Of a stretch of DNA of 19,997 nt, positions 6,739 to 19,541 are shown piece by piece; position 1 is the stretch's first letter, and each line of letters opens with the position of its first letter. The notes below the pieces were generated by a model that was not told the DNA's origin, searched no databases, and saw only the letters and a list, made by a program, of their open reading frames with translations. The DNA is from a virus. A program made the translations under genes and the position numbers. The stretch lies in UHGV virus genome UHGV-0061455; one strand, given 5' to 3'.

Positions 6739-6784
6739 AGCTGCACTGGCAGGGGCAACCCTGCTGGGCGGCAGTATCACTGCT

Positions 6785-7258
6785 GTGATTCAGCATAACG
6801 AGGGGTTGTCCCTGACGGCCTACAAAGATTCAGCCGGTGTACCTACCATCTGTTATGGTGAGACTAAAGGCGTACAGATAGGCCAGAAACGCACGCTAAC
6901 GCAATGTCAGGAGCAACTGATACGTTCGGCAGAGGGGCACGCTAAGGCGCTTGACGGCCTTCCTATGACGCTTACAGACGTACAGTTACTTGGCGCTCTG
7001 GACCTGACCTATAACATCGGTATCTCTGGATTCAAGAACAGTACAGTAAAGCGCAAGCTAATGCAAGGCGATACTAAAGGTGCCGCTCAGGCTGTCTTAG
7101 CGTGGCGCTACATCACCGTTAAAGGTAAGAAGTACGACTGTAGTATAGAAGGTAATAAGGTCTGCTACGGGCTCTGGAAGCGCCGTTTGTGGGAATCCCA
7201 AGCTATTGGCAACGAATTTAAATCAGTGCAAGCAGCATTAGCTGCTATTCCTAAGTAA
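6785..7258 (+). CDS. Endolysin, T4-lysozyme-like muramidase (glycoside hydrolase family 24), probably SAR-type with an N-terminal extension upstream of the listed start
   Basis: EGLSLTAYKDSAGVPTICYGET has the E-x8-D-x5-T catalytic spacing of T4/lambda/P22 lysozymes. The frame is open upstream to 6638 and encodes KVKAALAGATLLGGSITAVI, a Gly/Ala-rich hydrophobic stretch resembling a signal-arrest-release domain, but with no ATG/GTG/TTG in frame. Coordinates given are the conservative GTG start. Confidence 0.8.
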   Translation: MIQHNEGLSLTAYKDSAGVPTICYGETKGVQIGQKRTLTQCQEQLIRSAEGHAKALDGLPMTLTDVQLLGALDLTYNIGISGFKNSTVKRKLMQGDTKGAAQAVLAWRYITVKGKKYDCSIEGNKVCYGLWKRRLWESQAIGNEFKSVQAALAAIPK

Positions 7259-7267: not shown

Positions 7268-9013
7268 ATGACCCTAGTAAAGTTAGTTGAAGTAGAACTG
7301 GATACCTTGCACGTAGACCACTCTGGGTTAGTGCTTAATACGTACTTGAATGACAACGGGTACAACCTGCGTCAATGGGTAGACTCTGATGCAGCAGATG
7401 CACGAGAAGGAATGCAAGCTGCTATTGACTATATTGAGTCAGTTGGTGGAGGTACGTTAATTATCCCAGATGGTACTTGGATTCTTAACAGTATCAGTAC
7501 TGGCCCAGTGTCCGGGCACAGTGGACTCATTCAGCTTAAGAACAATGTAAGCATTAAGCTGGACGGTGTAGTTAAAGTAGGCCCTGCCTTAGCTAATAGT
7601 TCCTTCCAGGTCTTCGTCGGCTTCACTGATGCCAATCCAGCTAACTCTGGTAACTTGGACAACTGTCACATCTTTGGTGAAGGTAGCATTGACTTTGGAG
7701 GTTATGATTTTGCTGACTCAGGTCACTTGCGCAATGGTATCGCATTTGGTAAGGGGTATAACTGTTCAGTAGATGGCATTACGTTCATTAACGGTGACAT
7801 TACATGGGCTATAACACTTGGGTGGAACGGATATGGTTCAGACTCTTATGTCCGCAACTGCCGCTTCATTAACCTCATCCAAAGTAACGTGAACCGCGAC
7901 CATAGTACAGTGTACGTTAACTGCCCGTTCAGTGGGGTCACTGACTGCACCTTCCGCGCAAGCTCTGCGCGTGCCAAGGTAATAGCATGCACTGTGGAGT
8001 TACATCAACACGACACCTACTACCGCAATAGCAGCATCTCAGGATATACGCGTGGGTGCTATGTAGCGCTGCATGGTTCTGAGTCTGTTGGTGCAGGTAC
8101 GTACCTGTATAATGCCGAAGTCTCTGGGGTCATCGGAGATATCTCTGGTCAGGCCGTTATATTAGCTGCAGGCCCAGACGCTATAGCTACTACGCACATT
8201 CATGGCCTTACGGTATCTAACTGCCGGTTCACTGCTGGGAACTACCCGGGCATGTGCAGCTTCATTGACTTCTTCCAAGATGGTAACTCTGACTCAAGTC
8301 AGTACCTTATCAATCACGTTACGGTTAAGGGGTGCAGCTTCATCGTAGACCGCAGCCGTTCTCTTAGTGCAGCCATTACCCTGAACGGGAGTATTCAAGG
8401 TATCACCTTCCAGGATAACTTCTTCGATGTTAAGCAGGCTATGGTATCGGAACTCCCTAGCGGACGCACTGTGCAGTTAGAGCGCTTTAACTGGGATGCT
8501 AGCAATATCATCGGCGGCGATAACACTGGTACTCGTACTGGCCTGAACCTGTTTGAGACTCGGCGAGTATCCAGTATGTTGCGCTGTAACATTCAACTGC
8601 ATATGCGTCAGCCTAGTGTGGACCTGTACAGCTTTATGTACTTCCGTCCCGGTATCTCCTTCAGTGAGTGTACTATAGAGGTTCTACCTTACAACTGGGG
8701 TACTAGTTCAGGTAATGCACTGTTCTTTGAAGAGGGTGGCGTTCCTCCCCTGAACGTACATTGCAGCTTCCCTAAACAAGTATCTGTAACTCTCGCATCT
8801 GGTTCGAACGTGCAACGCGCTACGGTATCAGGTAACTACGCTTGGGTTGCCCGTGCAGACGCTCTGGATAGACGTGGTATTTCAGGTCAGTTCGATGCCC
8901 CTGCTAGTTACGCAGGTAGCAGCAACGGTCAGTTAACAGGCTTAGGTTGGCAGCTTGATGGGCTTCAACATACGTATGACCACAACGTGCTTCTTACAGG
9001 GCGCAGTAACTAA
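7268..9013 (+). CDS. Second tailspike, beta-helix polysaccharide depolymerase (pectate-lyase-3-like), no T7-type anchor domain
   Basis: 581 aa; AAGGA RBS. N-terminus DAREGMQAAIDYIESVGGGTLIIPDGTWIL resembles the start of pectate-lyase-fold phage depolymerases. Internal repeats (NCHIFGEGSIDF, NCRFINLIQSN, VTDCTFRAS, SNCRFTAG, KGCSFIVD) are typical beta-helix rungs. Confidence 0.75.
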   Translation: MTLVKLVEVELDTLHVDHSGLVLNTYLNDNGYNLRQWVDSDAADAREGMQAAIDYIESVGGGTLIIPDGTWILNSISTGPVSGHSGLIQLKNNVSIKLDGVVKVGPALANSSFQVFVGFTDANPANSGNLDNCHIFGEGSIDFGGYDFADSGHLRNGIAFGKGYNCSVDGITFINGDITWAITLGWNGYGSDSYVRNCRFINLIQSNVNRDHSTVYVNCPFSGVTDCTFRASSARAKVIACTVELHQHDTYYRNSSISGYTRGCYVALHGSESVGAGTYLYNAEVSGVIGDISGQAVILAAGPDAIATTHIHGLTVSNCRFTAGNYPGMCSFIDFFQDGNSDSSQYLINHVTVKGCSFIVDRSRSLSAAITLNGSIQGITFQDNFFDVKQAMVSELPSGRTVQLERFNWDASNIIGGDNTGTRTGLNLFETRRVSSMLRCNIQLHMRQPSVDLYSFMYFRPGISFSECTIEVLPYNWGTSSGNALFFEEGGVPPLNVHCSFPKQVSVTLASGSNVQRATVSGNYAWVARADALDRRGISGQFDAPASYAGSSNGQLTGLGWQLDGLQHTYDHNVLLTGRSN

Positions 9014-9466
9014 GTAATAAACCTGTGGGTGCCTGAGGGTGCCCTGGGATTTCCTGGGATTGCACGTGTAAACGTACACCTAGAAAATATTATACTCACG
9101 CGAGGCCCTCCCTCACCCGACCAAGGCGTCAATCCCCCCATGGGGTAGGCCTCTGGGAATTCACAGGGTGGGGTAGTGGGAGAGGGTGCTAATCCCTCTG
9201 CGTATACTGTGTGCTGCGCTAGACGCTCTGTATCGCTCTGTATCGCTCTGTATCGCTCTGTGAGTCTATAGCAGTACCTAAGGGACACTTCGTGTCTCTA
9301 CGCTGTACAAGGCAAGCCTCTGTGCTTCTCTGTGCTCTCTCTTATGAGGGCAGGAGGGGGCGCATGCTTGCCTATTTTTATGCACGCTGTGCAGTACTGT
9401 ATGCCGCTGCTATACCTCTGTGTATGCGCAGTAGCTTACCTCTTTTGCCTCTAGGCTATGCAATGC
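9014..9466. other. Non-coding genome-terminus or terminal-repeat-like region
   Basis: About 450 nt with no credible ORF between the last late gene and the first early promoter. Contains tandem short repeats, CTCTGT-type motifs, a CCCCATGGGG palindrome and C-rich/G-rich inverted arms. T7-like genomes have short repeat arrays next to their terminal repeats. Confidence 0.5.
9224..9261. repeat. Tandem repeat, about 3.8 copies of 10-bp unit CGCTCTGTAT
   Basis: Read directly: cgctctgtat cgctctgtat cgctctgtat cgctctgt. Related CTCTGTG motifs recur at about 9318-9345 and 9415. Confidence 0.9.
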
Positions 9467-9495
9467 TTGACGCAGGGTTAGCGCTGTGATATGCT
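9467..9495 (+). promoter_or_regulatory. Candidate sigma70-type early promoter P0 (TTGACG-N17-TATGCT)
   Basis: -35 TTGACG at 9467-9472, 17-nt spacer, -10 TATGCT at 9490-9495; about 100 nt upstream of the first early gene. Weaker -10 than the other promoters. Confidence 0.35.
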
Positions 9496-9601
9496 GATAG
9501 TAGTTGTAAGGTTCTTTAACAATCCGGGGAATCAACGACGCAGTGCAGCGAGTCACTACTCAACACTATATAGTAGGGGATATTGGAATACACTATGAAG
9601 G

Positions 9602-10345
9602 ATGCATACAATGCAAGAACGTAATCTTAAGAAGAGTAGTAAGCGTATAGACGGTAAGGTACGCAGTGGTTGGATAGATGTAGATACAGGGGAGTTCTTC
9701 AACACTAAAGCAGAGGCGAATGTAATGCGTAAGATGCGTAGTGATAAGAAGCCTGTAGCTAGGCGTAATGTAATAGCAGTAGCTGATGCAACGCTTAGAA
9801 TGAAGGATGTAGTGCTAGCTTGGGCATTCAGTAATGATTTCCAGCTTAAACATTACAACTTAATGAATGAGTACATGGAAGGGCGCAGTAAGGGCTATGC
9901 AGGGCTTAAGACTATGCAGCGTGCTGGTACTGTACTGGAAGCAGTTAACGTAGCTACAGCGTGGTACAAGCAGTATGACGCTAGGAAGGATAAACGCTAT
10001 CTGGATGATGCACTCTACACCAATCCTACATGGTGTGAGGATAGGGATTGGGTAGACTCTGAGCCATTGGATGAGCTTAGCTTAGAGATAAATGCATTAC
10101 TGGACTCTAGACATGCTGAGTTCTTAGCGAATGAGCCTAAACCTGAGCTTACTGCTAAGGAGTATGAGCGTAGTATACTCAGTAGGGATAAAGCTACTTA
10201 TATACACAGTAAGGGTGCTGTAACAGTGTATGAGGAGAAGCAGGAGAGTAAGAAAGGTTTAACTGAGCATCAACCTAGATGGTCACAGGATGAGTTGTTT
10301 GATTGGACGCAGCGTAACACTACACAACAATACATTAGGGGATAA
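9602..10345 (+). CDS. Early protein, function unknown
   Basis: 247-aa ORF, visibly more A+T-rich than the late genes. ATG 9611 has better RBS spacing (AAGGA 9 nt upstream) than ATG 9602, so the true start may be 9611. Confidence 0.6.
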   Translation: MHTMQERNLKKSSKRIDGKVRSGWIDVDTGEFFNTKAEANVMRKMRSDKKPVARRNVIAVADATLRMKDVVLAWAFSNDFQLKHYNLMNEYMEGRSKGYAGLKTMQRAGTVLEAVNVATAWYKQYDARKDKRYLDDALYTNPTWCEDRDWVDSEPLDELSLEINALLDSRHAEFLANEPKPELTAKEYERSILSRDKATYIHSKGAVTVYEEKQESKKGLTEHQPRWSQDELFDWTQRNTTQQYIRG

Positions 10346-10355
10346 GAGAATACAC

Positions 10356-10532
10356 ATGACTAAAGCAAACTGGCAGGGCTACAAGACACATGCTGATATG
10401 TGGGAGTTTCATAAGCGTATTAATGAGTATGCGTATCAGCGGTTAAAGGCAGAGCATGAGTTAGCAGAGCTAAGGCTCAAGGCGTACAGGGAGGGTAGTT
10501 TTGAATCTGAAGGGGATTGGAAGAGGTATTAA
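10356..10532 (+). CDS. Hypothetical small early protein
   Basis: 58 aa from ATG 10356 with AAGAG RBS-like sequence; same frame as track ORF 10290-10532, whose 5' part overlaps the upstream gene. Confidence 0.4.
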   Translation: MTKANWQGYKTHADMWEFHKRINEYAYQRLKAEHELAELRLKAYREGSFESEGDWKRY

Positions 10533-10576
10533 TGTGACAGTAACTTACCTCTTTTGAAATTAATTTAAAATAGTTG

Positions 10577-10605
10577 TTGACTTCCCTGATTTAAGCAGTT
10601 ATAGT
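10577..10605 (+). promoter_or_regulatory. Strong sigma70-type early promoter P1 (TTGACT-N17-TATAGT with A+T-rich upstream element)
   Basis: -35 TTGACT 10577-10582, exact 17-nt spacer, -10 TATAGT 10600-10605, preceded by aaattaatttaaaatagttg. Same architecture as P2 and P3a. Confidence 0.7.
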
Positions 10606-10629
10606 TCAAGCATAGTAAGGAGATGCAAA

Positions 10630-10770
10630 GGCAGCTGAAGGGGTAGCGGATAACCAAGACTACCCAGCCTAAAAGGACTTGAAGGACGTCGGTAACTGCA
10701 CCGCCTCTGCATCGAGGGAAGCAATGAGCTGCTAAGAGACAAAAGCAGCGCTAAGATGAATGTTCTTAGT
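10630..10770 (+). ncRNA. Conserved structured leader element, copy R1 of 3
   Basis: Begins about 18 nt after the predicted P1 start site. Conserved blocks GGCAGCTGAAGG, ATAACCAAGAC, AGCCTA-AAGGA, CTAAGAGACAA and GCTAAG are shared with R2 and R3. Hairpin A: GGGTAG (10641-10646) pairs with CTACCC (10660-10665) around a 13-nt loop. Hairpin C: CTAAG (10751-10755) pairs with CTTAG (10765-10769). The shared reading frame is broken by a stop in this copy. Confidence 0.5.
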
Positions 10771-10812
10771 TAAGCGTTACATCCTGTAGCGCATACTTAA
10801 GAGGATTTAAAT

Positions 10813-11127
10813 ATGAAGGCTTTAACTATCGTAATCTCCACGCTACTGATGACTGGATGCGCTACTAAGCAGTACCCACAAGCTACTGACCTTACTTTAC
10901 AGGAGCAGTCAGTGTTTGAATGCAAGGACGTACAGGTAGAATTAGCTAAGGCTTACAGTCAGAAGCTGAAGATTGATGAGACGGCAGGCTTCGATGCCGA
11001 AACTATCAGCGGATTCATGCTGGACTTTGGTATTGGTAATGCAATGGCTAAATCTAAGGCGTACGCTCAGGTTAACGGGCGTATCTCTAAACTGGAAGAA
11101 CTGAAGAAGGTGAGATGCAATGCGTAA
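10813..11127 (+). CDS. Early lipoprotein (signal peptide II with LMTGC lipobox)
   Basis: 104 aa; N-terminus MKALTIVISTLLMTGC is a classical lipoprotein signal. First gene after P1 and R1, with AAGAGG RBS. Confidence 0.7.
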   Translation: MKALTIVISTLLMTGCATKQYPQATDLTLQEQSVFECKDVQVELAKAYSQKLKIDETAGFDAETISGFMLDFGIGNAMAKSKAYAQVNGRISKLEELKKVRCNA

Positions 11128-11371
11128 CTTTAAATCTGAATTAAAAATCTGGTTCTCCGCTGCTGCTGTAGCTACTGCGCTGATGTTCTCCGTTAAGGGC
11201 GCTCAGGCTGCCCCTAACAGCATAGAACTGTGTAATTGGGGTAAGTGGGCGTGGCAGCAGAACATTAAGCTAGACGCGCTTGTAGACGCCTTAAACAGCG
11301 TTGAGGCTATGCCCTACGATGATAAGCTGATTGTTGTGCGCTGCTTTGTTGAATCTATGGAGACTATGTAA
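11120..11371 (+). CDS. Early secreted/periplasmic small protein (Sec signal peptide)
   Basis: 83 aa; N-terminus MRNFKSELKIWFSAAAVATALMFSVKGAQA-AP has a basic n-region, hydrophobic core and AQA cleavage motif. Start overlaps the end of the lipoprotein gene, suggesting translational coupling. Confidence 0.6.
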   Translation: MRNFKSELKIWFSAAAVATALMFSVKGAQAAPNSIELCNWGKWAWQQNIKLDALVDALNSVEAMPYDDKLIVVRCFVESMETM

Positions 11372-11547
11372 TGTTTGATTTAACTACTACGAACGAAGTG
11401 CAGACGATGACTAGCCGTGAGATTGCCGAGTTAACTGGTAAGATGCACACCCATGTAATTGCTGATATTCGTAAGATGCTGGCAGAGATTGGAGGAGAAA
11501 CGAAATTCCGCTCGTCCTACATATCGGCTCAAAATAAATTAAAATAA
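11371..11547 (+). CDS. Short Rha-like protein (phage regulatory protein Rha N-terminal DNA-binding domain only)
   Basis: 58-aa ORF below the track's size cutoff; ATG overlaps the upstream stop (TAATG). TSREIAELTGKMHTHVIADIRKM matches the signature N-terminus of Rha/antirepressor-type proteins. Its last codons are the A+T-rich upstream element of P2. Confidence 0.5.
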   Translation: MFDLTTTNEVQTMTSREIAELTGKMHTHVIADIRKMLAEIGGETKFRSSYISAQNKLK

Positions 11548-11550
11548 GTG

Positions 11551-11579
11551 TTGACGACGTACAGGGAAGTGCGTATAGT
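11551..11579 (+). promoter_or_regulatory. Strong sigma70-type early promoter P2 (TTGACG-N17-TATAGT)
   Basis: -35 TTGACG 11551-11556, 17-nt spacer, -10 TATAGT 11574-11579, preceded by aaaataaattaaaataagtg. Confidence 0.7.
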
Positions 11580-11636
11580 TCATTACATCGGGAGGCGAGA
11601 GGCACTAAGCACCTCCTCCCGGAAAGGAGAAGTTAA

Positions 11637-11775
11637 GGCAGCTGAAGGTAACGATGATAGCCAAGACGTTACAGCCTACAAGGAAGTGAACGAAATCCGA
11701 ACCCTACGGTCCCTGCAATCGGGAGAACTGGATGAGAAGCTAAGAGACAAGAGCTTCGCTAAGTGACTACTTAGT
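11637..11775 (+). ncRNA. Conserved structured leader element, copy R2 of 3
   Basis: Same conserved blocks as R1 and R3. Hairpin A: GTAACG (11648-11653) pairs with CGTTAC (11667-11672) around a 13-nt loop atgatagccaaga. Hairpin C: CTAAG (11759-11763) pairs with CTTAG (11770-11774). The 43 nt between element and ATG, including the AAGAGG RBS, are homologous to those after R1. Confidence 0.5.
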
Positions 11776-11817
11776 TAAGCGTCGTACAGTACGGCGCAGA
11801 ATTAAGAGGTTAAAGAA

Positions 11818-12237
11818 ATGAAAGCTACCCGTTCAAACTGGAAAGAAGCTAAAGGCCTGGTTAAGGTAACAACTAAAAGTATGCCTTGCCTTAAGACAGA
11901 AGCAGCACAAGACGAAGGTGCAGTTGCAATGGAACGTAAGCACGCCATGGAGCTTGCAGCGTACAACTCTGAAGCACGCCGTGCAGAGCTTGTAGAGCTG
12001 GCTAACAAGCCTGAAGGTACTGAAGCACGTAAGGTACTGCGTAAGATGCAGACCTTCACTACTAAGCCTCAGTCAATCCCCAGCAATGATTACAGCATGA
12101 AGCTCAGCCAGCGTCGTGCTAAATCTGAAGAATACAACGAGCGTGGCGAGCGTACTTGCCGCCCTTCAAGCAAGACCTGTCAGCGCATTAACAGTTATTT
12201 CCGCAGTAAGTCCTCTACACCTAAAGGAGTTAAATGA
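11818..12237 (+). CDS. Hypothetical early protein (basic, Lys/Arg-rich)
   Basis: 139-aa ORF with AAGAGG RBS; first gene after P2 and R2. Its first three codons match those of the lipoprotein gene after R1. Confidence 0.6.
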   Translation: MKATRSNWKEAKGLVKVTTKSMPCLKTEAAQDEGAVAMERKHAMELAAYNSEARRAELVELANKPEGTEARKVLRKMQTFTTKPQSIPSNDYSMKLSQRRAKSEEYNERGERTCRPSSKTCQRINSYFRSKSSTPKGVK

Positions 12238-12329
12238 TGGTGGGTCATACTAATCAATCTACTGAATGGGAACGTCAGCGTGAAGCTGAGATGTTTAAAC
12301 TGTATAAGGAGTTAACGAAATGGCACTGA
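12237..12329 (+). CDS. Possible small ORF (30 aa)
   Basis: AAGGAG RBS 7 nt upstream of ATG 12237; overlaps the start of the next gene. Small and unsupported beyond RBS and packing. Confidence 0.25.
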   Translation: MVGHTNQSTEWERQREAEMFKLYKELTKWH

Positions 12330-12643
12330 CCAAAGCCGCAGGCGACGTAGGTACTTATACCACAGCAGAGCAATCCGGTTGTTGTAAGGAAAATACTCAG
12401 TACAACGCCTGGAGGCCTCATTATGGGACACGCCAACCTGTTCCGGATGGGACTATGGTATTTATCCGGTATCGCTACGGGGAGCAGCCGAAGACTAGTG
12501 TAGACGCAAAAAATCGATTGTGGGTTTGGGATGGTACATACTCAGACATCGTGGAGTACAAGATTGACATACAGGAATGCAAGCATGAGCAGGTTGTGTA
12601 CGATGTGGATGACTTCCAGACACGATCGAAATGCGGGCGTTAG
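12320..12643 (+). CDS. Hypothetical early protein
   Basis: 107-aa ORF, AAGGAG RBS 8 nt upstream of ATG. Confidence 0.6.
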   Translation: MALTKAAGDVGTYTTAEQSGCCKENTQYNAWRPHYGTRQPVPDGTMVFIRYRYGEQPKTSVDAKNRLWVWDGTYSDIVEYKIDIQECKHEQVVYDVDDFQTRSKCGR

Positions 12644-12678
12644 CATCAGCAAACTTACTTCTACAAGAGAACGCAGAA

Positions 12679-12807
12679 ATGACACAGCATCAGAAAGCTC
12701 AGCAGTTGGCTAAGAACTACCACACTTTCCTGATTAACAACGAATGCAATGTGCGTTTCGCCTGGAACGCAGCAATGGCCCTTTTCAAACTGGAGATGCA
12801 GAAATGA
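12679..12807 (+). CDS. Possible small ORF (42 aa)
   Basis: ATG 12679; stop overlaps the start of the next gene (ATGA). Fills a gap in a tightly packed early operon. Confidence 0.25.
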   Translation: MTQHQKAQQLAKNYHTFLINNECNVRFAWNAAMALFKLEMQK

Positions 12808-12980
12808 TTAACCTGAACCCTGAACTGATTCTGATGCGTAATGATGAAGTAACTGTTGAGACGCTAGCCAAAGAATATGACGCTAGAGAACAGTTGATTG
12901 AGTACTACAAAGGTAAAGCTGAACGTGTAGGCCTCAGCTTCGAAAGCTACATTAAACGCTTCGGCATTACCTTACGCTAA
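12804..12980 (+). CDS. Hypothetical small early protein
   Basis: 58 aa from ATG 12804 with GGAG upstream; same frame as track ORF 12744-12980, whose upstream part lacks an RBS. Confidence 0.45.
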   Translation: MINLNPELILMRNDEVTVETLAKEYDAREQLIEYYKGKAERVGLSFESYIKRFGITLR

Positions 12981-12990
12981 GGGGGCAGAC

Positions 12991-13320
12991 ATGTTGCCAG
13001 TAAATGAAGTAATTGAACAGTACTGGCAGATGCTGGAGAATCAAAGCAGCTTAGGCCGTAAGACACTGCGAGATATTCCAGCAGAGCTACGCAAGCTTTG
13101 CCCTTTGAAGTGGTGTACTGATTGGCAGTACCGTGAAGGAATGCGCTTGCTGGTAGGTTATTACAAGTACGACGCTGAGAGGGCCTCAGAGGTCCTACAG
13201 CGTATGGAATTCGATGTAGTAAGAGAGTTGCAGCAGCTTGGATATGAAGGCGCTAAGCAGGCGTTTAAGGCTGCTTGCATTAATCATTATGAATGGCAGA
13301 CATCTTACAGAGGTATCTAA
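12991..13320 (+). CDS. Hypothetical early protein
   Basis: 109-aa ORF, AAGGGGG RBS. Confidence 0.6.
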   Translation: MLPVNEVIEQYWQMLENQSSLGRKTLRDIPAELRKLCPLKWCTDWQYREGMRLLVGYYKYDAERASEVLQRMEFDVVRELQQLGYEGAKQAFKAACINHYEWQTSYRGI

Positions 13321-13526
13321 TGAAAGTAAAAGCTATTAAAATTGAAGACTCGTCGGCTTTAGATTACCTGACTGAAGGTAAACTCTATGAGGTCGTATAT
13401 TGCTCCAATCGGAAATTTGGTGATTTAGTCCTAGATATAATTGACGATTTAGGCGAGATGATATCAATACTAGTTAGTGATGGGCCAAGCTGTGCTCACG
13501 GTGTTAAATGGGAGATTGTGGAATGA
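13320..13526 (+). CDS. Hypothetical small protein
   Basis: 68 aa from ATG 13320, which overlaps the upstream stop; same frame as track ORF 13293-13526. Confidence 0.45.
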   Translation: MKVKAIKIEDSSALDYLTEGKLYEVVYCSNRKFGDLVLDIIDDLGEMISILVSDGPSCAHGVKWEIVE

Positions 13527-13768
13527 ACTTCGTAGAACACAACCTAAAGATTTCAGATATAAAGTCTCAGAACTCGGCTATCTATAGGCTTGACCAGATG
13601 CATGGGGACAGTACTAATCCTAACGTAAGTACTGTATTCGTAACTAATGATGATATGCTGGAGCTAGTTGAATTATGGCTGAAGAACTGTGGCTACGGCG
13701 AGCGAGACAGTTGGGTGTTGGACAGACTGAAAGGTTTAGGTGTTGTGGTAGAACAGCAGCAGCTGTAA
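13523..13768 (+). CDS. Hypothetical small protein
   Basis: 81 aa from ATG 13523 (GTGGAATGA overlap with upstream stop). The 3' end overlaps the predicted primase start by about 94 nt, so one of the two boundaries is uncertain. Confidence 0.4.
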   Translation: MNFVEHNLKISDIKSQNSAIYRLDQMHGDSTNPNVSTVFVTNDDMLELVELWLKNCGYGERDSWVLDRLKGLGVVVEQQQL

Positions 13769-14463
13769 TAAGAAACGAGCCAGATAAATGGACATGCTCT
13801 TGCTTTAGATGTAAAGGTTATCACGTGGAGCGTAAGCAGTACGCTCAATTAGTAGTACCTGAAGTACTGGGGCGTGAGTTGCCCGCCCCTCAGGACCTGA
13901 AGCGCCTGCCGGAACTGGATGCAGGGCTTCAGCAGTTCCTTTACGGATTCTTAATATCAAAAGGTATCTGGCCTGATATGGCTGGAGATGTTTATTACTC
14001 AGAACAATACAAGAGGTTAGTGTGGAAATTATCAACGGGCAGTTACATAGCGAGAGCATTGCACGAGTACCAGTTTCCGAAGTGGGTGATGCTGGGGAAG
14101 TCGTTACAATGGGCGCAGCTTGGGAATACTGGAACGATAACAGTACTGACAGAGGATTATCTCTCGGCGCTGAAGGTTCAGCAGGTCTCGGAGAAGTATT
14201 CTTCACAGACTGTTACGGCAATAGCATTACTGGGGACTCGCTTAGCTCTTGGGCTTAAGGCTCAGCTGATACGAGAAGGGAAGCCTATAGTGTGCATGTT
14301 GGACGGAGACAAGGCAGGTTACGCTGGAACTGTTCAAATTCACAAACAGTTACGTCCATTTTTAAGGGTAGGCGACTTCCACATTGATGGGCTAGACCCC
14401 AAGGACATGAAGTGTAGTCAAATAATAGAAGGTATAGCAGATGAATTGGGAAGAGTATTATAA
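13675..14463 (+). CDS. DNA primase (zinc-binding region plus TOPRIM domain; T7 gp4 primase-like, separate from the helicase)
   Basis: 262 aa. Cys cluster RFRCCGRTAAAVIRNEPDKWTCSCFRC near the N-terminus; VCMLDGDKAGYAGT resembles the TOPRIM acidic motif (T7 MFDMDEAGRKA). Start is uncertain because of the upstream overlap. Confidence 0.65.
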   Translation: MAEELWLRRARQLGVGQTERFRCCGRTAAAVIRNEPDKWTCSCFRCKGYHVERKQYAQLVVPEVLGRELPAPQDLKRLPELDAGLQQFLYGFLISKGIWPDMAGDVYYSEQYKRLVWKLSTGSYIARALHEYQFPKWVMLGKSLQWAQLGNTGTITVLTEDYLSALKVQQVSEKYSSQTVTAIALLGTRLALGLKAQLIREGKPIVCMLDGDKAGYAGTVQIHKQLRPFLRVGDFHIDGLDPKDMKCSQIIEGIADELGRVL

Positions 14464-14586
14464 GTACGATGAAGAGGTTCCCTCAGGACTTGTTAGAATC
14501 AAAGCTGTAAAGGGTACTAGAGTGGGTACAGAAGACTAAGGTTGAGTTACATGGTGAATTTGCCAACTTAAAGTAAGGGGCATTGA

Positions 14587-15861
14587 ATGGATTTTGTAAT
14601 AGCTAGGGCTATGTGTGAACGTAAGGTGCATGACCGCTTACGGGACAGTATCCCTAAGTCACTGCTTGCGCCGGATACGGTAGCACTGCTAGGATGGATT
14701 GAACTGTATTATGCAACCTACCCTGACTCTAACGAAGTACGCTTTGATGTAATGGATACGCTCCTTAATATGCGTGGGGCGCATTTACAGAAGGAGCAGA
14801 TGGATATCCTTAAGCATATGCTTAAGACCGTTCAGGGCGTTCCTGATGAGGCGGTAGCTGGTACAGTGCGTACGCTGAACGAGCTGGCCTACTCGGGTGA
14901 GATGGCTGCACTGGTCAGTAAGTATCAGGCTGGGGAAGAGATTGACTTTGTACAGGAAGCTAAAGCGCTTGAGCGCAAGTACTCAGGCGTAGCAGCAGCC
15001 AATGATTCACTACTTAAGTGGGAAGATGGGGGTGTAGACGATATTCTCGCGGCTACTGATGAGTCTGGTGGTCTTAAGCTTACTGTGTTCAGTGAGTTGG
15101 CTAGAAACATTCGCGGCTTACGGGGTGGTGATTGTGTTGCTGTTGCTGCCCCTGTTGATGCTGGTAAAACTTCTCTCCTAGCTGCTATAGTAGTTAACCT
15201 AGCGGAACAGATGCATGAGCAGAAGGAGATTTACGCAGAGCGTCCTATCCTGTGGTTGGTGAACGAGTCATTGGCCAAGCGCACTGTACCGCGCATCTAT
15301 CAAGCAGCTACTGGACTTACCTTGCAGCAGATTGTTGAGCAGCATAAAGAAGGTAAGTTTGCTGATAAGTACCTGAAGAAGGTTGGGACTTGGGATAAGA
15401 TTCGCGTTAAGGATGCGCACAGTATGAGCCTAGGTCAAATCTCTACGCTATTGGAAGAGATGCGTCCGGCTGTGCTGGTGATTGACATGGTCGCTAATAT
15501 AAAGGGAGGTAATGCCGAGTCAGAGTATCAGGCATTGGAACAGAAGTGGCAGCAGCTGCGTATGCTGGGATGTGAATATGATTGCGTTATCTTAGGTACG
15601 ATTCAGTTATCTGTTGAAGGTTACGATTGCATGTACCCGCCGCTGACAGCATTGAAAGGAAGTAAGATAGGTGTTCAAGGTGCTTTGGACTTATGCATCA
15701 TGATGGGACGTATGAATGTTAACGATCGTCCTGACATGGCTAACGTACGCGGGATTAGTACACCTAAGAATAAGTTAGGTAAGTCTGGTAGTACTGCATA
15801 TGTGCAGTTCCAAGTGGAGTTTAACGGCGGTACGTGCCAATTCAGTGAAGGTCTAGCGTAA
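14587..15861 (+). CDS. Replicative DNA helicase (DnaB/gp4B-like)
   Basis: 424 aa; AAGGGG RBS. Walker A-like AAPVDAGKTS, Walker B-like hydrophobic stretch ending in D (AVLVIDMVA), and position directly after the primase. Confidence 0.8.
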   Translation: MDFVIARAMCERKVHDRLRDSIPKSLLAPDTVALLGWIELYYATYPDSNEVRFDVMDTLLNMRGAHLQKEQMDILKHMLKTVQGVPDEAVAGTVRTLNELAYSGEMAALVSKYQAGEEIDFVQEAKALERKYSGVAAANDSLLKWEDGGVDDILAATDESGGLKLTVFSELARNIRGLRGGDCVAVAAPVDAGKTSLLAAIVVNLAEQMHEQKEIYAERPILWLVNESLAKRTVPRIYQAATGLTLQQIVEQHKEGKFADKYLKKVGTWDKIRVKDAHSMSLGQISTLLEEMRPAVLVIDMVANIKGGNAESEYQALEQKWQQLRMLGCEYDCVILGTIQLSVEGYDCMYPPLTALKGSKIGVQGALDLCIMMGRMNVNDRPDMANVRGISTPKNKLGKSGSTAYVQFQVEFNGGTCQFSEGLA

Positions 15862-15916: not shown

Positions 15917-16381
15917 ATGAGCACTTGCATAGATCATGGTAAGTGTAAAAGCTTATCACCTGAAGGGTATTTATTAGTTACACGTCCTGAGTATTTCAGC
16001 AGAGGTTGTAAGACTAGAAGCATTGCTAAGCATAGGCTAGTACTTCTTACAAAGCTGGGTATAAACTGGTGGGATGAAGAGGCTAAGGATTTAGTAGCGC
16101 TCCACACTTGCGATAATCCTAGATGTATTAATCCCGAGCATCTGGTAGCAGGAACCCGTGGGGACAATAACAGAGATAGGGCAGAAAGAGGGAGAAGTGC
16201 TAAGAAGGTTCCTAGTAAGTGGAAGCTTACCCCTACTGATTGCAAAGCTATAATTAACTCTTATAACAAGAAAGATAGGGAGAATAACAAAAGCGCCTTA
16301 TCAGCACGTTTCAAAGTAGACCGTAAGATAATCACTCAAGTTTTAGAAGGAACATATAGTGGCCTCGATTTTAATCTTTGA
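15917..16381 (+). CDS. HNH homing endonuclease
   Basis: 154 aa; GGAGG RBS. HTCDNPRCINPEHLVAGTRGDNNRD matches the HNH_3-type motif. Gene is visibly more A+T-rich than the flanking helicase and polymerase genes. Confidence 0.8.
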   Translation: MSTCIDHGKCKSLSPEGYLLVTRPEYFSRGCKTRSIAKHRLVLLTKLGINWWDEEAKDLVALHTCDNPRCINPEHLVAGTRGDNNRDRAERGRSAKKVPSKWKLTPTDCKAIINSYNKKDRENNKSALSARFKVDRKIITQVLEGTYSGLDFNL

Positions 16382-17504
16382 TATTGAAACTCAAAACGTG
16401 CCTTACTTTGGAGGGGTAGCTACTCCGTACTGCCCTGAGAACTACATCGTAGAATCAGGGTTCAGGATTGATAGAACTAATCCAGATGGTACAGTAACGT
16501 GCAGTGATGTAGGCAGCGTACGTTATGAATCAAGAGAAGAGTTCTTGCAGGCAGACCCTAAGCAGTGGTTACCTATTCAGGAAGATACATGGTTAATCGT
16601 GGCCCATAACGCTGCGTATGAGATTAGCTGGGCACTGACGTTTGCTAGGGAAGAGTTTGAGGCATTCCTGAAAAGAGGTGGACGTGTATTTGATACAATG
16701 CAGGGGCAATACATCGCCTCTGACTTCCAAGACCTTTACCCGTCACTGGATGAGACGGCCCCCAAGTATGGTGGCAGTCACAAGGTTGATGGTGTTAAGC
16801 TGCTGTGGCAGCAGGGAGTATTAACAGCAGATATTGACCCAGTACTACTGCATGAGTACCTAACAGGGCCGGAAGGAGACATCGTCAATACTGCACTGTG
16901 CTTCTACGGGCAATGTGCATTGTTCGCTGAGCGTGGGCAGATGCCTATGGTCTGGGAAAGGATGGATAGTGTAGTAGCCCTAGCCTACTGTGAGTTTAAT
17001 GGTGTGTACGTAGACATGCCTACAGCCAGAGCTAACCAGAAGGAGCAGGAGGACGCTATCGCAGTACTGAAGCAGACTCTGCAAGGCTTCTTGCCGGAAC
17101 TACCTGAAGGCTTTGAGTTCAACTGGAACAGTGGATACCACATGTCCGCACTGGTGTATGGCGGTATGGTTAAGTACAAGTGCAAGGTCCCGTATGACCC
17201 GCCGAAGTATGTGAAGAAGGAAGTGCAGGATGGGGTATATAAGTCAGGCCGTAACAAGGGCATGCCTAAGTACATTAAAGTAGACACAGACGAGCAGGCT
17301 ATGAAGTGGGGCGAGCGTTTGTATAAGTTCGAAGGACTTGTATGTATTAAGGACCTGCCGGCAGTACTACAAGAGAAGTATGCGGAGCGAGGAGAGTTCC
17401 GAGGTGCTCAGACATTAGCAGACGGTACAGCTGTATTCAGTACAGGTACGGATGCTATGAAAGAACTGGCTAACTATTTTATTGGGATTGAAGACGATGA
17501 GTAA
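16359..17504 (+). CDS. DNA polymerase (family A), N-terminal fragment with 3'-5' exonuclease domain
   Basis: 381 aa from GTG 16359 (GAAGGA RBS 7 nt upstream), overlapping the HNH gene end. Exo I motif ILIFDIETQ and Exo II VAHNAAYEISWAL align with T7 gp5 (IVSDIEANA, VFHNGHKYDVPAL). ORF stops where the methyltransferase gene begins. Confidence 0.8.
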   Translation: MASILIFDIETQNVPYFGGVATPYCPENYIVESGFRIDRTNPDGTVTCSDVGSVRYESREEFLQADPKQWLPIQEDTWLIVAHNAAYEISWALTFAREEFEAFLKRGGRVFDTMQGQYIASDFQDLYPSLDETAPKYGGSHKVDGVKLLWQQGVLTADIDPVLLHEYLTGPEGDIVNTALCFYGQCALFAERGQMPMVWERMDSVVALAYCEFNGVYVDMPTARANQKEQEDAIAVLKQTLQGFLPELPEGFEFNWNSGYHMSALVYGGMVKYKCKVPYDPPKYVKKEVQDGVYKSGRNKGMPKYIKVDTDEQAMKWGERLYKFEGLVCIKDLPAVLQEKYAERGEFRGAQTLADGTAVFSTGTDAMKELANYFIGIEDDE

Positions 17505-18204
17505 TTTTATAAACATTATGCACGGTGACTGTCTGGAGTTGATGAAGGAAATTCCAGCTAAAAGTGTAGATATGGTACTTTGCGACTTACCTTATGGGAC
17601 TACTCAATGTAAATGGGATGTGATTATAGATTTTAAAATGTTATGGGAAAACTACGGTAGGGTAGTTAAGGATACGGGCGCTATAGTCCTAACGGCGGCG
17701 CAGCCGTTCACAAGTACGCTGGTAGTAAGTAATATTAAGAACTTCAAATATCAATGGGTTTGGAAGAAATCAAGACCTACAGGACATCTTAATGCTAAGA
17801 AGCAACCGTTACGGAACACTGAAGACATTCTCGTCTTCTATAAGTCGCAGTGTACGTATAATCCTCAAGGTACACGAGAAACAGACGTCATGGTGTCACG
17901 TACAAACAGGGGCAATTACGGGGAATGTTCAAAAACCACACGGCAGACGGTAACCGGTTACCCTACTACGATTCTGGAATTTGCATCTGAAGTAGGGGAA
18001 CACCCAACACAAAAGCCAGTCGCACTTATGGAGTATCTAATTCGTACATATACAAACGAAGGTGATACTGTTCTAGACAATTGCATGGGCAGTGGTACTA
18101 CGGGGGTAGCAGCTAAGAATACACTCCGTAATTTTATAGGTATCGAAAAGGATGCTACATACTACGATATAGCATTCAATCGCATTCATAATTCAAACGT
18201 GTAA
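17497..18204 (+). CDS. DNA methyltransferase (N6-adenine/N4-cytosine, beta-class)
   Basis: 235 aa from ATG 17497 (overlaps the Pol-N stop). N-terminus MSNFINIMHGDCLELMKEIPAKSVDMVLCDLPYG carries a DLPY variant of motif IV (DPPY). HPTQKP and DNCMGSGTTGVAAK...NFIGIEKD (motif I) are family signatures. Visibly A+T-rich versus neighbours. Confidence 0.85.
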   Translation: MSNFINIMHGDCLELMKEIPAKSVDMVLCDLPYGTTQCKWDVIIDFKMLWENYGRVVKDTGAIVLTAAQPFTSTLVVSNIKNFKYQWVWKKSRPTGHLNAKKQPLRNTEDILVFYKSQCTYNPQGTRETDVMVSRTNRGNYGECSKTTRQTVTGYPTTILEFASEVGEHPTQKPVALMEYLIRTYTNEGDTVLDNCMGSGTTGVAAKNTLRNFIGIEKDATYYDIAFNRIHNSNV

Positions 18205-18211
18205 GGTATGT

Positions 18212-19520: not shown

Positions 19521-19541
19521 ACACATCAAGGAAGCAGTACT

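What the first reader, a model, noticed from the sequence alone, without database searches (positions are those of the whole stretch)
11818..13768. Chain of translationally coupled small early genes of unknown function
At least eight ORFs of 30-140 aa after P2/R2 are joined by ATGA or TAATG overlaps and have good RBSs. In this class of phage such early small proteins are the usual source of host-takeover and anti-defence functions; none has a recognisable motif. The 139-aa product is strongly basic and could bind nucleic acid.
Basis: inference. Interest (0 to 1): 0.35.

Follow-up and report, generated by a model that had tools for sequence, protein, structure and literature searches.

The report
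Early small-gene operon of a coliphage
This is a real but ordinary early operon of eight tightly packed small genes in a KP34-like E. coli podophage: six are conserved phage genes of unknown function and two were imported from unrelated siphophages, and none can yet be given a biochemical role.

Summary
Eight same-strand ORFs (139, 31, 107, 42/58, 58, 109, 68 and 81 aa) fill 11818-13768. They are joined by ATGA/TAATG overlaps or short gaps. Seven of the eight starts have a strong Shine-Dalgarno site.

The window comes from an unclassified Slopekvirinae (KP34/phiKMV-like) E. coli podophage. The chain lies about 2.4-4.5 kb from the genome end. It follows a sigma70 promoter (P2) and a structured leader (R2) supported by covariation, and it runs into primase-helicase-polymerase.

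- **Backbone.** Six ORFs (o1, o2, o4, o5, o6, o8) are present in every relative examined and are under purifying selection where I measured it (omega 0.02-0.4; not measured for o8). The o5 (Pfam DUF7267) and o6 pair extends to Drulisvirus.
- **Imports.** Two ORFs (o3, o7) are absent from other relatives. They match small-gene arrays of Kagunavirus-type siphophages and are spliced in exactly at start codons and ATGA junctions.

Function stays unknown. Pfam, NCBIfam, PADLOC and PDB gave no informative match. AlphaFold models of o1 and o6 had low confidence. The 139-aa protein is basic (pI 10) but shows no nucleic-acid-binding fold. Homologues of o5 and o6 in Klebsiella phage fHe-Kpn01 were not toxic in E. 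coli.

Verdict: a new member of a known kind, of low to moderate interest. The repeated promoter-leader RNA (three copies in the window) is the more unusual by-product.

The parts
11551..11579 (+). P2, a sigma70-type promoter (TTGACG-17-TATAGT, 10 of 12 matches). It abuts the stop codon of a truncated Rha-like gene.
   Evidence: The hexamers are conserved in relatives although the spacer sequences differ. Function as a promoter is inferred.
11586..11817 (+). R2, an untranslated structured leader. The start is inferred from the position of P2. Covarying helices are H1 11648-11652/11668-11672, H2 11736-11741/11752-11757, H3 11758-11763/11770-11775 and H4 11779-11786/11790-11797. The SD AAGAGG lies at 11803-11808.
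   Evidence: In 13 copies, 96% of cells are paired and 15 of 25 pairs show compensatory changes. The covariation score is 0.495 against 0.173 in shuffles (0 of 500 reach it). No Rfam match.
11818..12237 (+). o1, 139 aa, basic (pI 9.97). The N-terminal 51 aa vary; the C-terminal 88 aa are conserved (motifs ELVxLAxKPEGTEARK, IPSND, ERGERTCRPSSKT, NSYF, TPKGVK).
   Evidence: Omega is 0.07-0.26 for the C-terminal part and 0.12-0.40 for the N-terminal part. It matches phrog_9286 and phrog_5722, both of unknown function. The AF2 model has pLDDT 61.9.
12234..12329 (+). o2, 31 aa (or 30 aa from the ATG at 12237). It overlaps the o1 stop codon (ATGATG).
   Evidence: Omega is 0.06-0.22. Three relatives read 'I' at residue 1, which favours the second ATG as the start.
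12320..12643 (+). o3, 107 aa, an imported cassette. It corresponds to the central domain of a 148-184 aa Kagunavirus-type protein. It lacks that protein's ~52-aa N-terminal coiled coil, and the C-terminal CxxC knuckle is reduced to a single Cys.
   Evidence: It is absent from all relatives fetched as loci except L013. DNA is 86-87% identical to E. coli siphophages. Junctions are shown.
12679..12807 (+). o4, 42 aa. The open frame extends upstream to the ATG at 12631 (58 aa). It is the most constrained gene of the chain.
   Evidence: Omega is 0.02-0.08 and amino-acid identity in most relatives is 88-98% (48-84% in L001, L002, L008 and L009). Relatives' gene calls are 42 aa. The SD is weak (-2.9 kcal/mol).
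12804..12980 (+). o5, 58 aa, Pfam DUF7267 and phrog_5136. It is homologous to fHe-Kpn01 gp09.
   Evidence: Omega is 0.06-0.39. It is 37% identical to gp09, E 2.9e-14.
12991..13320 (+). o6, 109 aa, predicted all-helical, phrog_6167. It is homologous to fHe-Kpn01 gp11 and the KP34 protein YP_003347659, and is conserved across Slopekvirinae and in Pectobacterium phages.
   Evidence: It is found in 309 phage records, but only about 7 true 50%-identity representatives exist among 1.8 billion proteins. Omega is 0.05-0.15. The AF2 model has pLDDT 53.6.
13320..13526 (+). o7, 68 aa, acidic (pI 4.5), an imported cassette. It is spliced between the TAATG start that belongs to o8 in relatives and its own ATGA stop/start overlap.
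   Evidence: It is absent from all relatives fetched as loci except L013. Homologues (42-54% identity) occur only in Kagunavirus-type and related siphophages of E. coli and Salmonella. Junctions are shown. It matches phrog_6261, of unknown function.
13523..13768 (+). o8, 81 aa, acidic (pI 4.7). It is present in all relatives but is the most divergent backbone gene. Its last 94 nt overlap the primase ORF.
   Evidence: The window allele is 54-62% identical to relatives, which are 62-98% identical to each other.
13675..14463 (+). DNA primase (Toprim domain, N-terminal Cys4 zinc finger). It is the first gene downstream of the chain, with no terminator predicted in between.
   Evidence: (phrog_47, E 1.8e-24). 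tblastn matches begin at residue 1 in all relatives, so the overlap with o8 is conserved.

Best explanation
The region is the second host-RNA-polymerase (sigma70) transcription unit of the early region of an unclassified Slopekvirinae E. coli podophage.

**How it is expressed.** Transcription starts at P2 (11551-11579) and passes through a ~230-nt structured leader, R2. It then continues without a predicted terminator through eight small ORFs into primase, helicase and DNA polymerase. Ribosomes load at strong SD sites, and start/stop overlaps (ATGA, TAATG) couple translation of neighbouring genes. The small proteins are therefore made together in the first minutes of infection, before the phage RNA polymerase exists.

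**What the chain is made of.**
- A six-gene backbone (o1, o2, o4, o5, o6, o8) is inherited vertically and kept by purifying selection. The o5 (DUF7267)-o6 pair is old enough to be shared with Drulisvirus.
- There are at least three variable slots: o2|o4, o5|o6 and o6|o8. In this phage, two slots carry cassettes (o3, o7) taken from the small-gene arrays of Kagunavirus-type siphophages. Both are spliced exactly at start codons, so they inherit the resident RBS and keep the coupling.

**Most likely roles (inference).**
- The backbone proteins set up the infected cell or the replication machinery for the phage itself.
- The slot genes are host-specific accessory functions such as counter-defence or competition with other phages.
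- The basic, largely non-globular o1 probably acts by binding a polyanion (nucleic acid) or an acidic partner.

No biochemical activity is shown for any of them.
For: **Shown**
- ORF tiling, junction types and SD strengths.
- Phage identity and gene order, by synteny with the annotated Slopekvirinae PAS7, P64441, F19 and fHe-Kpn01.
- The tail-spike gene ends at 9013. A non-coding, repeat-rich zone follows, and the first early gene starts at 9602.
- The backbone is present in every relative fetched as a locus that covers the position, and omega is 0.02-0.40.
- o3 and o7 are absent from all of those loci except the 99.8%-identical contig L013. Their only homologues lie in siphophage small-gene arrays.
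- Junctions sit exactly at ATG and ATGA.
- Other genes occupy the same slots elsewhere: a 97-aa gene in L008, a 63-aa gene in L007, a pentapeptide-repeat protein in P64441 and the toxic gp10 in fHe-Kpn01.
- The o5-o6 pair corresponds to gp09 and gp11 of fHe-Kpn01, and o6 is found in 309 phage records.
- P2 matches the consensus at 10 of 12 positions, and no terminator is predicted before the primase.
- The R2 structure is supported by covariation.

**From the literature**
- In phiKMV-like LUZ19 and KP34, sigma70 promoters cluster at the left end, and phage-specific promoters begin only after the RNAP gene (PMC10914365).
- The fHe-Kpn01 screen tested g09 and g11 and did not flag them as toxic. 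Gp11 gave a relative CFU of 0.49 +/- 0.14 (PMC7291057).
Against: - No transcript, protein or phenotype data exist for this phage.
- Promoter use, the transcription start site and read-through into the primase are all inferred from sequence.
- The phage RNAP gene is outside the window, so 'early' rests on synteny.
- The functional split (backbone as phage-intrinsic, cassettes as accessory) is an argument from distribution only.
- o8 evolves fast even though it belongs to the backbone.
- o3 may be an inert fragment: it is N-truncated and its Zn knuckle is degenerate.
- Distant o1 homologues occur in Melnykvirinae phages that lack R-like leaders. That removes any simple link between o1 and R2.
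Confidence: 0.7

Rival explanations
1. The chain is an anti-defence island. Most of the eight proteins would be inhibitors of E. coli immune systems (restriction, abortive infection, and so on).
For: - It sits in the early region, and the products are small and include acidic proteins (o7 pI 4.5, o8 pI 4.7).
- Variable slots show gene turnover.
- P64441 carries a pentapeptide-repeat protein in the o5|o6 slot. That fold is known elsewhere to mimic DNA (own knowledge).
- o8 is fast-evolving.
- o3 and o7 are shared only with other phages of E. coli and Salmonella.
Against: - No sequence or structural link to any known inhibitor was found.
- o4, o5 and o6 are under strong purifying selection.
- o5 and o6 are conserved across phages of very different hosts, which is unusual for system-specific inhibitors.
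- No anti-defence profile library was available, so absence of a hit is weak evidence.
Confidence: 0.25
2. The conserved block o4-o5-o6-o8 is a replication-accessory module. Candidate roles are helicase loader, origin-binding factor or primase partner, translated together with the primase.
For: - In this clade the block lies directly upstream of primase-helicase-polymerase, and o8 overlaps the primase start in every relative.
- o4 and o6 are very strongly constrained.
- The o5 and o6 homologues are not toxic in E. coli (PMC7291057).
Against: - In Drulisvirus the o5-o6 pair is separated from the primase by about 3.4 kb of genes for virion-associated proteins (gp12-gp14), so the linkage is not conserved.
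- No DNA-binding or ATPase motif was found.
- The o6 model is not confident.
Confidence: 0.2
3. Some of the ORFs, above all o3, are non-functional passengers. They would be gene fragments left by illegitimate recombination and kept open only because the event is recent.
For: - o3 lacks the ~52-aa N-terminal coiled coil of all its siphophage homologues. Its C-terminal CxxC is reduced to one Cys.
- It is known from only two near-identical genomes, the window and L013, so selection cannot be measured.
- Its insertion took the SD away from o4.
Against: - The reading frame is intact, with the best-placed SD of the chain (AAGGAG, -8.8 kcal/mol) and an in-frame start created exactly at the junction.
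- The retained central domain is the nearly invariant part of the family (36 invariant columns).
Confidence: 0.3
4. The ORFs are chance open frames or mis-annotations and not genes.
For: Several are very short (31 and 42 aa). Most have no informative family match in Pfam or NCBIfam.
Against: - ORF coverage is 99.5% against a mean of 28% in shuffles.
- SD sites are present.
- Orthologues exist in more than 10 loci, with omega 0.02-0.4 even for the 31-aa and 42-aa ORFs.
- Six of the eight match PHROG families.
Confidence: 0.02

Closest known systems
Early ORFan region of phiKMV/KP34-like phages (for example Klebsiella phage fHe-Kpn01 gp02-gp11, F19 gp1-gp8, LUZ19 early genes)
   Same: - Same position between the left genome end and the primase.
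- Same strand, with tight packing and overlapping stops and starts.
- Driven by sigma70 promoters.
- Two genes are true homologues: o5 matches gp09 and o6 matches gp11. A variable gene sits between them, and in fHe-Kpn01 that gene is the toxic gp10 (PMC7291057, PMC10914365).
   Different: - Apart from o5 and o6, the gene set is not shared with Drulisvirus.
- Here the chain abuts the primase directly, whereas in Drulisvirus ~3.4 kb of virion-protein genes intervene.
- The R-type leader was not found at the Drulisvirus left ends.
Class I (early) operon of coliphage T7: promoters A1-A3, RNase III site R0.3, genes 0.3-1.3 (own knowledge)
   Same: - Host RNAP transcribes a polycistronic early mRNA from strong sigma70 promoters.
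- A structured RNA element lies between the promoter and the first gene, and recurs at other gene-block starts.
- The products are small host-takeover and anti-defence proteins.
   Different: - No sequence homology to Ocr, gp0.7, gp2 or other T7 early proteins.
- The first product here is basic, not an acidic DNA mimic.
- The R helices are 5-8 bp, shorter than a canonical ~20-bp RNase III substrate.
- The phage RNAP gene is not part of this unit.
Small-gene arrays of Kagunavirus (Guernseyvirinae) siphophages, and the lambdoid nin-region or 'moron' type of accessory gene
   Same: - o3 and o7 have their only homologues there, inside strings of overlapping small genes (DUF551, DUF2480, DUF2737, NinH family).
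- Exchange occurs at gene boundaries, as described for phage mosaicism (own knowledge).
   Different: - The recipient is a virulent podophage of another order.
- o3 is only a fragment of the donor gene.
- The cassettes bring no promoter or terminator of their own, so they are not classic morons. They plug into the resident translational coupling sites.
5'UTR-derived structured RNAs of virulent phages (ONT-cappable-seq candidates in LUZ19, phiKZ and others; PMC10914365)
   Same: R1, R2 and R3 are structured RNAs that lie directly downstream of promoters and upstream of the first gene of a unit.
   Different: - There is no sequence relation.
- No evidence that R is released as a separate RNA.
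- R occurs as a three-copy paralogous family per genome, with conserved loop sequences.

Membership tests
Pfam DUF7267 (PF23929), tested for o5 | Whole-protein score above the Pfam gathering cut-off of 27 bits | tested here: met
   52.3 bits, E 7.8e-14, covering profile positions 5-62 of 64. Orthologues in relatives carry the same precomputed Pfam hit. The family has no known function, and no paper in the library mentions it.
PHROG 6167 (o6), 5136 (o5), 9286/5722 (o1), 6261 (o7), 9174 (o3) | Significant profile match | tested here: met
   E-values are 2.2e-28 (o6), 1.1e-14 (o5), 9.9e-11 (o1), 9.5e-6 (o7) and 1.8e-6 (o3). All these families are labelled 'unknown function'. o2, o4 and o8 gave no PHROG hit.
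Early (host-RNAP) region of Slopekvirinae / phiKMV-like phages | Position between the genome end and primase-helicase-DNAP, same strand, upstream of the phage RNAP gene | tested here: met
   Synteny with PAS7, P64441, F19 and fHe-Kpn01. Helicase, DNA polymerase and tail spike were identified in the window. The RNAP gene itself is outside the window.
Early (host-RNAP) region of Slopekvirinae / phiKMV-like phages | Transcription from sigma70 promoters early in infection | not testable with these tools
   Only a consensus match is available (10 of 12), together with conservation of the hexamers. In the 8900-14600 stretch scanned, the number of promoter-like sites is not above the shuffle expectation (4 against 8.3), so the case rests on match quality, position and conservation.
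Translationally coupled operon | Stop/start overlaps or very short spacers on one strand, with no internal terminator | tested here: met
   Three ATGA overlaps, one TAATG overlap, a 10-nt overlap, a 10-nt gap and a 35-nt gap. The only + strand terminator-like hit inside the chain (12440-12453, within o3) is a weak 5-pair stem. Actual coupling was not measured.
Nucleic-acid-binding protein (tested for o1) | Net positive charge | tested here: met
   pI 9.97 and net charge +13.6.
Nucleic-acid-binding protein (tested for o1) | A recognised DNA- or RNA-binding domain or fold | tested here: inconclusive
   - No Pfam or NCBIfam domain.
- The PDB profile search gave nothing better than E 0.17.
- The AF2 model has pLDDT 61.9 and pTM 0.32, and shows helices without a compact fold.
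- The best Foldseek E-value was 6.4.
Known anti-defence proteins (Ocr-type DNA mimics, Acr, Tad, Gad and others) | Homology or a shared fold with a characterised inhibitor | not testable with these tools
   No anti-defence profile library was available. PDB sequence searches for o1, o3, o5, o6, o7 and o8 found nothing at E < 0.1. PADLOC holds defence proteins, not anti-defence proteins, and gave only a DrmA hit at E 0.019 for o1, which I treat as noise.
Kagunavirus 148-184 aa protein family (tested for o3) | Full domain set: N-terminal coiled coil, central conserved domain and C-terminal C-x-H...CxxC knuckle | tested here: not met
   Only the central domain is present. It is 62-77% identical to the siphophage homologues, with 36 invariant columns. 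The coiled coil is absent and the CxxC is reduced to 'SKCG'. o3 is a homologous fragment, not a full member.
Rfam families and the T7-type RNase III site (tested for leader R2) | Covariance-model match, or about two helical turns of dsRNA with an internal loop | tested here: not met
   No Rfam match at E <= 1. The covarying helices are only 5-8 bp. The R2-specific 5' hairpin (about 11589-11621) is longer but is absent from R1 and R3.

The most novel reading that the evidence does not exclude
Two linked readings go beyond 'ordinary early operon'.

1. **A new leader RNA family.** The chain would be controlled by a previously undescribed cis-acting leader RNA family. R1, R2 and R3 each follow a strong sigma70 promoter at the head of a gene block. 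They have four covarying helices and invariant loop sequences (GATAACCAAGAC and AAGAGACAA). Such an RNA could make host RNAP termination-resistant, as the HK022 put RNAs do. Alternatively it could recruit a host or phage factor that stabilises or times the early mRNAs.
2. **Plug-in sockets for foreign genes.** The start/stop overlap sites of the operon would let small genes from unrelated siphophages be installed without any regulatory DNA of their own. At least one slot gene (o3, o7 or fast-evolving o8) would then be a new inhibitor of an E. coli defence or housekeeping target.
Probability: 0.3. Interest if true: 0.55.

Novelty: new member of a known kind. Interest (0 to 1): 0.3.

Why it matters
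Strings of small early genes of unknown function are found in nearly all virulent phages, so the finding as stated adds little.

Three things have some value:
- **A map for experiments.** The chain separates into a constrained backbone (o4, o5 and o6 in particular) and replaceable slot genes. This shows where to look first for essential early functions and where to look for host-specific accessory functions.
- **A clear example of gene exchange.** Genes moved between a podophage and siphophages, with breakpoints exactly at start codons. Translational coupling sites can therefore act as module boundaries.
- **A candidate regulatory RNA.** The repeated promoter-leader unit is a structured RNA supported by covariation, with no Rfam counterpart. 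It could explain how host RNAP expresses the long early and middle region of KP34-like phages.

Tried and rejected
- **Profile libraries.** Pfam, NCBIfam, PADLOC and PHROGs scans of all eight ORFs returned only DUF7267 and PHROG families of unknown function. A Pfam scan of all 26 members of the o3 family gave only coiled-coil noise in the N-terminal part that o3 lacks.
- **PDB sequence and profile searches** for o1, o3, o5, o6, o7 and o8 found nothing better than E 0.01. The weak T7 gp5.9 hit (E 0.15) lies in the coiled coil that is absent from o3.
- **AlphaFold2.**
  - o6 (49-sequence alignment): pLDDT 53.6.
  - o1 (36 sequences): pLDDT 61.9.
  - Both models are too poor to use. I still ran Foldseek on them as a sanity check, and nothing reached E <= 0.001.
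- **Exhaustive profile search with o6** against 1.84 billion representatives gave only about 7 true relatives plus one spurious ankyrin-like hit. The family is narrow and carries no informative domain fusions.
- **Idea that o1 binds the R leader.**
  - Weakened because Melnykvirinae phages carry o1 homologues as their first gene.
  - Those phages gave no R-model hit.
- **Idea that R mimics a host RNA.** No BLAST match in 5,426 complete E. coli genomes.
- **The search for related loci with o6 in IMG/VR** returned only 2 loci. Contig look-ups were more productive.
- **My 'chain length' shuffle statistic** was not informative, because the first-ATG ORF definition breaks the junction rule. Only the coverage statistic is used.


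Full report
**Observation**

| ORF | Coordinates | Length |
|---|---|---|
| o1 | 11818-12237 | 139 aa |
| o2 | 12234-12329 | 31 aa |
| o3 | 12320-12643 | 107 aa |
| o4 | 12631-12807 | 58 aa as an open frame |
| o5 | 12804-12980 | 58 aa |
| o6 | 12991-13320 | 109 aa |
| o7 | 13320-13526 | 68 aa |
| o8 | 13523-13768 | 81 aa |

- The junctions are ATGA (o1/o2, o4/o5, o7/o8), TAATG (o6/o7), a 10-nt overlap (o2/o3) and a 10-nt gap (o5/o6).
- All starts except o4 pair with the anti-SD at -6.4 to -11.1 kcal/mol.
- ATG-initiated ORFs of at least 30 aa cover 99.5% of the region. In 2000 shuffles the mean was 28% and the maximum 76%.
- o1 is basic: pI 9.97, net charge +13.6.

Two corrections apply. First, o4 probably starts at 12679 (42 aa), because the relatives' genes are 42 aa and conservation begins there. 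Second, o8 overlaps the next gene, a DNA primase (13675-14463), by 94 nt. Primase matches begin at residue 1 in all relatives, so the overlap is conserved.

**Where this is**

The window matches unclassified Slopekvirinae E. coli podophages of 42-43 kb at 80-90% DNA identity:
- PAS7 and P64441, both annotated.
- S.Kent 1-2-1 and ECO104 4-5-2, both unannotated.

A 43.4-kb Logan contig (L013) is 99.8% identical over 11300-14000 and has the same gene chain.

The gene order in the window is:
- tail spike, ending at 9013;
- a repeat-rich non-coding zone;
- small genes, from 9602;
- the chain;
- primase, DnaB-type helicase and an HNH endonuclease;
- a DNA polymerase in two ORFs with a methylase between them.

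This is the KP34/phiKMV layout, and the chain lies about 2.4-4.5 kb from the genome end. In phiKMV-like LUZ19 and KP34, sigma70 promoters cluster at the left end and phage-RNAP promoters start only after the RNAP gene (PMC10914365). The 'early, host-RNAP' label is therefore reasonable, although it is inferred from synteny.

**Are they genes?**

Yes. tblastn finds o1, o2, o4, o5, o6 and o8 in every related locus that covers the position.

Nei-Gojobori estimates show purifying selection:

| ORF | omega |
|---|---|
| o1, C-terminal part | 0.07-0.26 |
| o1, N-terminal part | 0.12-0.40 |
| o2 | 0.06-0.22 |
| o4 | 0.02-0.08 |
| o5 | 0.06-0.39 |
| o6 | 0.05-0.15 |

- The 42-aa o4 is the most constrained gene of the chain.
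- o8 is present everywhere but diverges fast. The window allele is 54-62% identical to the others, which are 62-98% identical among themselves.

**Mosaic structure**

o3 and o7 are missing from all relatives fetched as loci except L013.

*o3.*
- Its DNA is 86-87% identical to E. coli siphophages.
- Its only protein homologues (22 phage records, 26 clusters in the large collection) are 148-184 aa proteins of such phages. The one I checked, fBC-Eco01, is a Kagunavirus (Guernseyvirinae).
- There the gene sits in a string of overlapping small genes (DUF551, DUF2480 and others).
- o3 corresponds only to the nearly invariant central domain.
- The ~52-aa N-terminal coiled coil is missing.
- The C-terminal C-x-H...CxxC knuckle is reduced to '...SKCGR'.

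*o7.* Its homologues (42-54% identity, 45 records) are again in Kagunavirus-type and related siphophages of E. coli and Salmonella, next to DUF2737 and NinH-family genes.

*Junctions.*
- In relative L007, the sequence AAGGAATTAACGAA-ATG starts o4.
- In the window, the same SD and ATG start o3. Kagunavirus-like sequence begins right after the ATG. That ATG sits where the donor gene has an AAG Lys codon.
- o4 has been pushed 359 nt downstream and has lost that SD.
- For o7, the left breakpoint is the TAATG that starts o8 in all relatives.
- Its right breakpoint is the donor's own GAATGA stop/start overlap, which now starts o8.

Other genomes carry other genes in the same three slots:
- a 97-aa gene between o2 and o4 in L008;
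- a 63-aa gene in L007, a pentapeptide-repeat protein in P64441 and gp10 in fHe-Kpn01, all between o5 and o6.

The chain is therefore a fixed backbone with replaceable slots, and the coupling sites act as module boundaries.

**What the proteins are**

*o5 and o6.*
- o5 belongs to Pfam DUF7267.
- o6 belongs to phrog_6167. It is found in 309 phage records, including 225 Klebsiella and 51 Pectobacterium phages plus Enterobacter, Shigella and Acinetobacter phages.
- The o6 family is nevertheless tiny in sequence space, with about 7 true 50%-identity representatives among 1.84 billion proteins.
- In Klebsiella phage fHe-Kpn01, gp09 is the o5 homologue (37% identity, E 3e-14) and gp11 the o6 homologue (32%, E 6e-14).
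- That phage's 22 hypothetical genes, g09 and g11 among them, were screened for toxicity in E. coli. Only g10, g22 and g38 were confirmed toxic. Gp11 gave a relative CFU of 0.49 +/- 0.14 (PMC7291057).
- The toxic gp10 occupies the o5|o6 slot but has no counterpart in the window.

*o1.*
- Its family has two N-terminal variants (139 and 108 aa) and a conserved, polar, basic C-terminal part.
- Distant homologues (about 34% identity) are the first gene after the terminal repeat in Melnykvirinae Klebsiella phages.

*Searches and models.*
- Nothing else matched Pfam, NCBIfam, PADLOC or PDB sequences.
- AlphaFold2 gave low-confidence, helix-only models for o6 (pLDDT 53.6) and o1 (61.9, with the conserved C-terminal half below 55).
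- Foldseek found nothing at E <= 0.001.
- The claim that o1 could bind nucleic acid therefore rests on charge alone.

**How the chain is expressed**

P2 (TTGACG-17-TATAGT, 11551-11579) abuts the stop codon of a truncated Rha-like ORF. A ~230-nt untranslated leader, R2, lies between P2 and o1.

A paralogue, R1, follows promoter P1 (10577-10605) ahead of the previous gene block.

Across 13 copies from six genomes, four helices show covariation:
- 96% of cells are paired.
- 15 of 25 pairs carry compensatory changes.
- The covariation score is 0.495 against 0.173 in shuffles (0 of 500 reach it).
- Slid controls give at most 0.116.
- Loop sequences are conserved (GATAACCAAGAC, AAGAGACAA).

A covariance model of the 3' module found a third copy at 19633-19710 (E 5e-12). 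It lies behind an 11/12 sigma70 promoter (19376-19404), downstream of the DNA polymerase. Equivalent sites exist in PAS7 and P64441.

R was not found elsewhere:
- no Rfam match;
- no match in E. coli genomes;
- in the phage collection, only this clade matched;
- no hit at Drulisvirus or Melnykvirinae left ends.

No convincing terminator is predicted between P2 and the primase: the one + strand terminator-like hit in that stretch (12440-12453, inside o3) is a weak 5-pair stem.

**Most likely mechanism**

*Shown:*
- a packed, conserved, coupled gene chain behind a consensus promoter and a structured leader;
- a backbone-plus-slots architecture;
- cassette import at start codons.

*Inferred:*
- Host RNAP starts at P2 and transcribes R2, the chain and the replication genes as one early unit.
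- Coupling gives co-expression.
- The backbone proteins serve phage-intrinsic early functions. The argument is their conservation across hosts, their strong constraint and the non-toxicity of the homologues.
- The slot genes serve host-specific accessory functions.
- o1 binds a polyanion or an acidic partner.

*Rivals:*
- An anti-defence island (0.25).
- A replication-accessory module (0.2). It is weakened because the o5-o6 pair is not next to the primase in Drulisvirus.
- o3 as an inert fragment (0.3).
- Chance ORFs (refuted).

**Comparison and verdict**

The closest known things are:
- the early ORFan regions of KP34/phiKMV-like phages, with which two genes are truly shared;
- the T7 class I operon, as a functional analogue with no homology;
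- siphophage small-gene arrays, as the donors of o3 and o7.

This is a new member of a known kind. As stated, the finding is ordinary (interest about 0.3). The by-products are more interesting than the chain itself: the three-copy promoter-leader RNA family and the precise start-codon splicing of foreign cassettes.

Noticed in passing
window 10577-10812 (P1+R1), 11551-11817 (P2+R2), 19376-19744 (P3+R3): The window has three paralogous units, each a strong sigma70 promoter followed by a ~200-nt structured leader at the head of a gene block. Four helices covary and the loop sequences are invariant. There is no Rfam match and no match in E. coli genomes, and only this phage clade carries the element. 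Its function is unknown; candidates are mRNA stabiliser or translation enhancer, processing site, or a put-like antiterminator.
   Followed up: partly
window 11371-11547: This 58-aa ORF is the N-terminal stub of a Rha/ANT-type regulator (Pfam Phage_pRha, E 1.2e-8). The gene is 221-251 aa in PAS7, P64441 and L007. Roughly 630 bp are missing relative to L004, and the stub's stop codon abuts the -35 hexamer of P2. The same truncation is present in L013.
   Followed up: partly
window 10813-11127: This 104-aa ORF has a lipoprotein signal (LMTGC lipobox) and matches the PHROG 'lipoprotein' family phrog_10370. It is the first gene after R1 and is absent from all relatives fetched as loci except L013. 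It is probably another imported accessory gene, possibly for superinfection exclusion. The next ORF (11120-11371, 83 aa) has a signal-peptide-like N-terminus and is conserved in relatives.
   Followed up: partly
window 13675-13768: o8 and the primase overlap by 94 nt in different frames, and the overlap is conserved in all relatives. The first Cys pair of the primase zinc finger is encoded inside o8. Gene calls attached to public assemblies miss the primase ORF and instead call an internal 78-aa ORF (window 14022-14258). PAS7 and P64441 annotate either a shortened primase or no o8.
   Followed up: partly
window 15917-19363: The family A DNA polymerase is split into two ORFs (16359-17504 and 18212-19363). 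An N6/N4 DNA methyltransferase ORF (17482-18204, TTG start; Pfam E 2e-29) lies between them, and an HNH endonuclease (15917-16381) lies upstream. The relatives PAS7 and P64441 have the split polymerase but no methylase at this site.
   Followed up: no
window 9020-9560: This non-coding zone lies between the tail-spike gene and the first early gene. It contains overlapping copies of an 18-nt unit spaced 10 nt apart (CGCTCTGTAT period, 9224-9261) and a sigma70-like promoter (9467-9495). It is probably the region of the physical genome ends or terminal repeat, so the window seems to come from a circularly permuted assembly.
   Followed up: no
window 19381-19647: This 88-aa ORF lies across promoter P3 and leader R3. 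It is probably not a gene.
   Followed up: partly
L016 (Klebsiella phage F19) 3496-3807: The o6 homologue is present in the reference genome of Drulisvirus F19 but is not annotated there. tblastn places it in the gap between F19_08 and F19_09.
   Followed up: no
GenBank records OR847174, OR848392, OR848645 ('Listeria phage LM 4-11-1' and 'LM 4-14-1') and OR850875 ('Salmonella phage S.Kent 1-2-1'): These UNVERIFIED_ORG records, named for Listeria or Salmonella hosts, carry sequence ~90% identical to this E. coli-type Slopekvirinae phage. The host labels of these wastewater assemblies look unreliable.
   Followed up: no
L002 (P64441) 6262-6849 and L017 (fHe-Kpn01) 3721-3930: The slot between the o5 and o6 homologues holds a 195-aa pentapeptide-repeat protein in P64441. 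In fHe-Kpn01 the same slot holds gp10, a 69-aa protein that was experimentally toxic. This slot is therefore a good place to look for host-targeting genes in this subfamily.
   Followed up: partly
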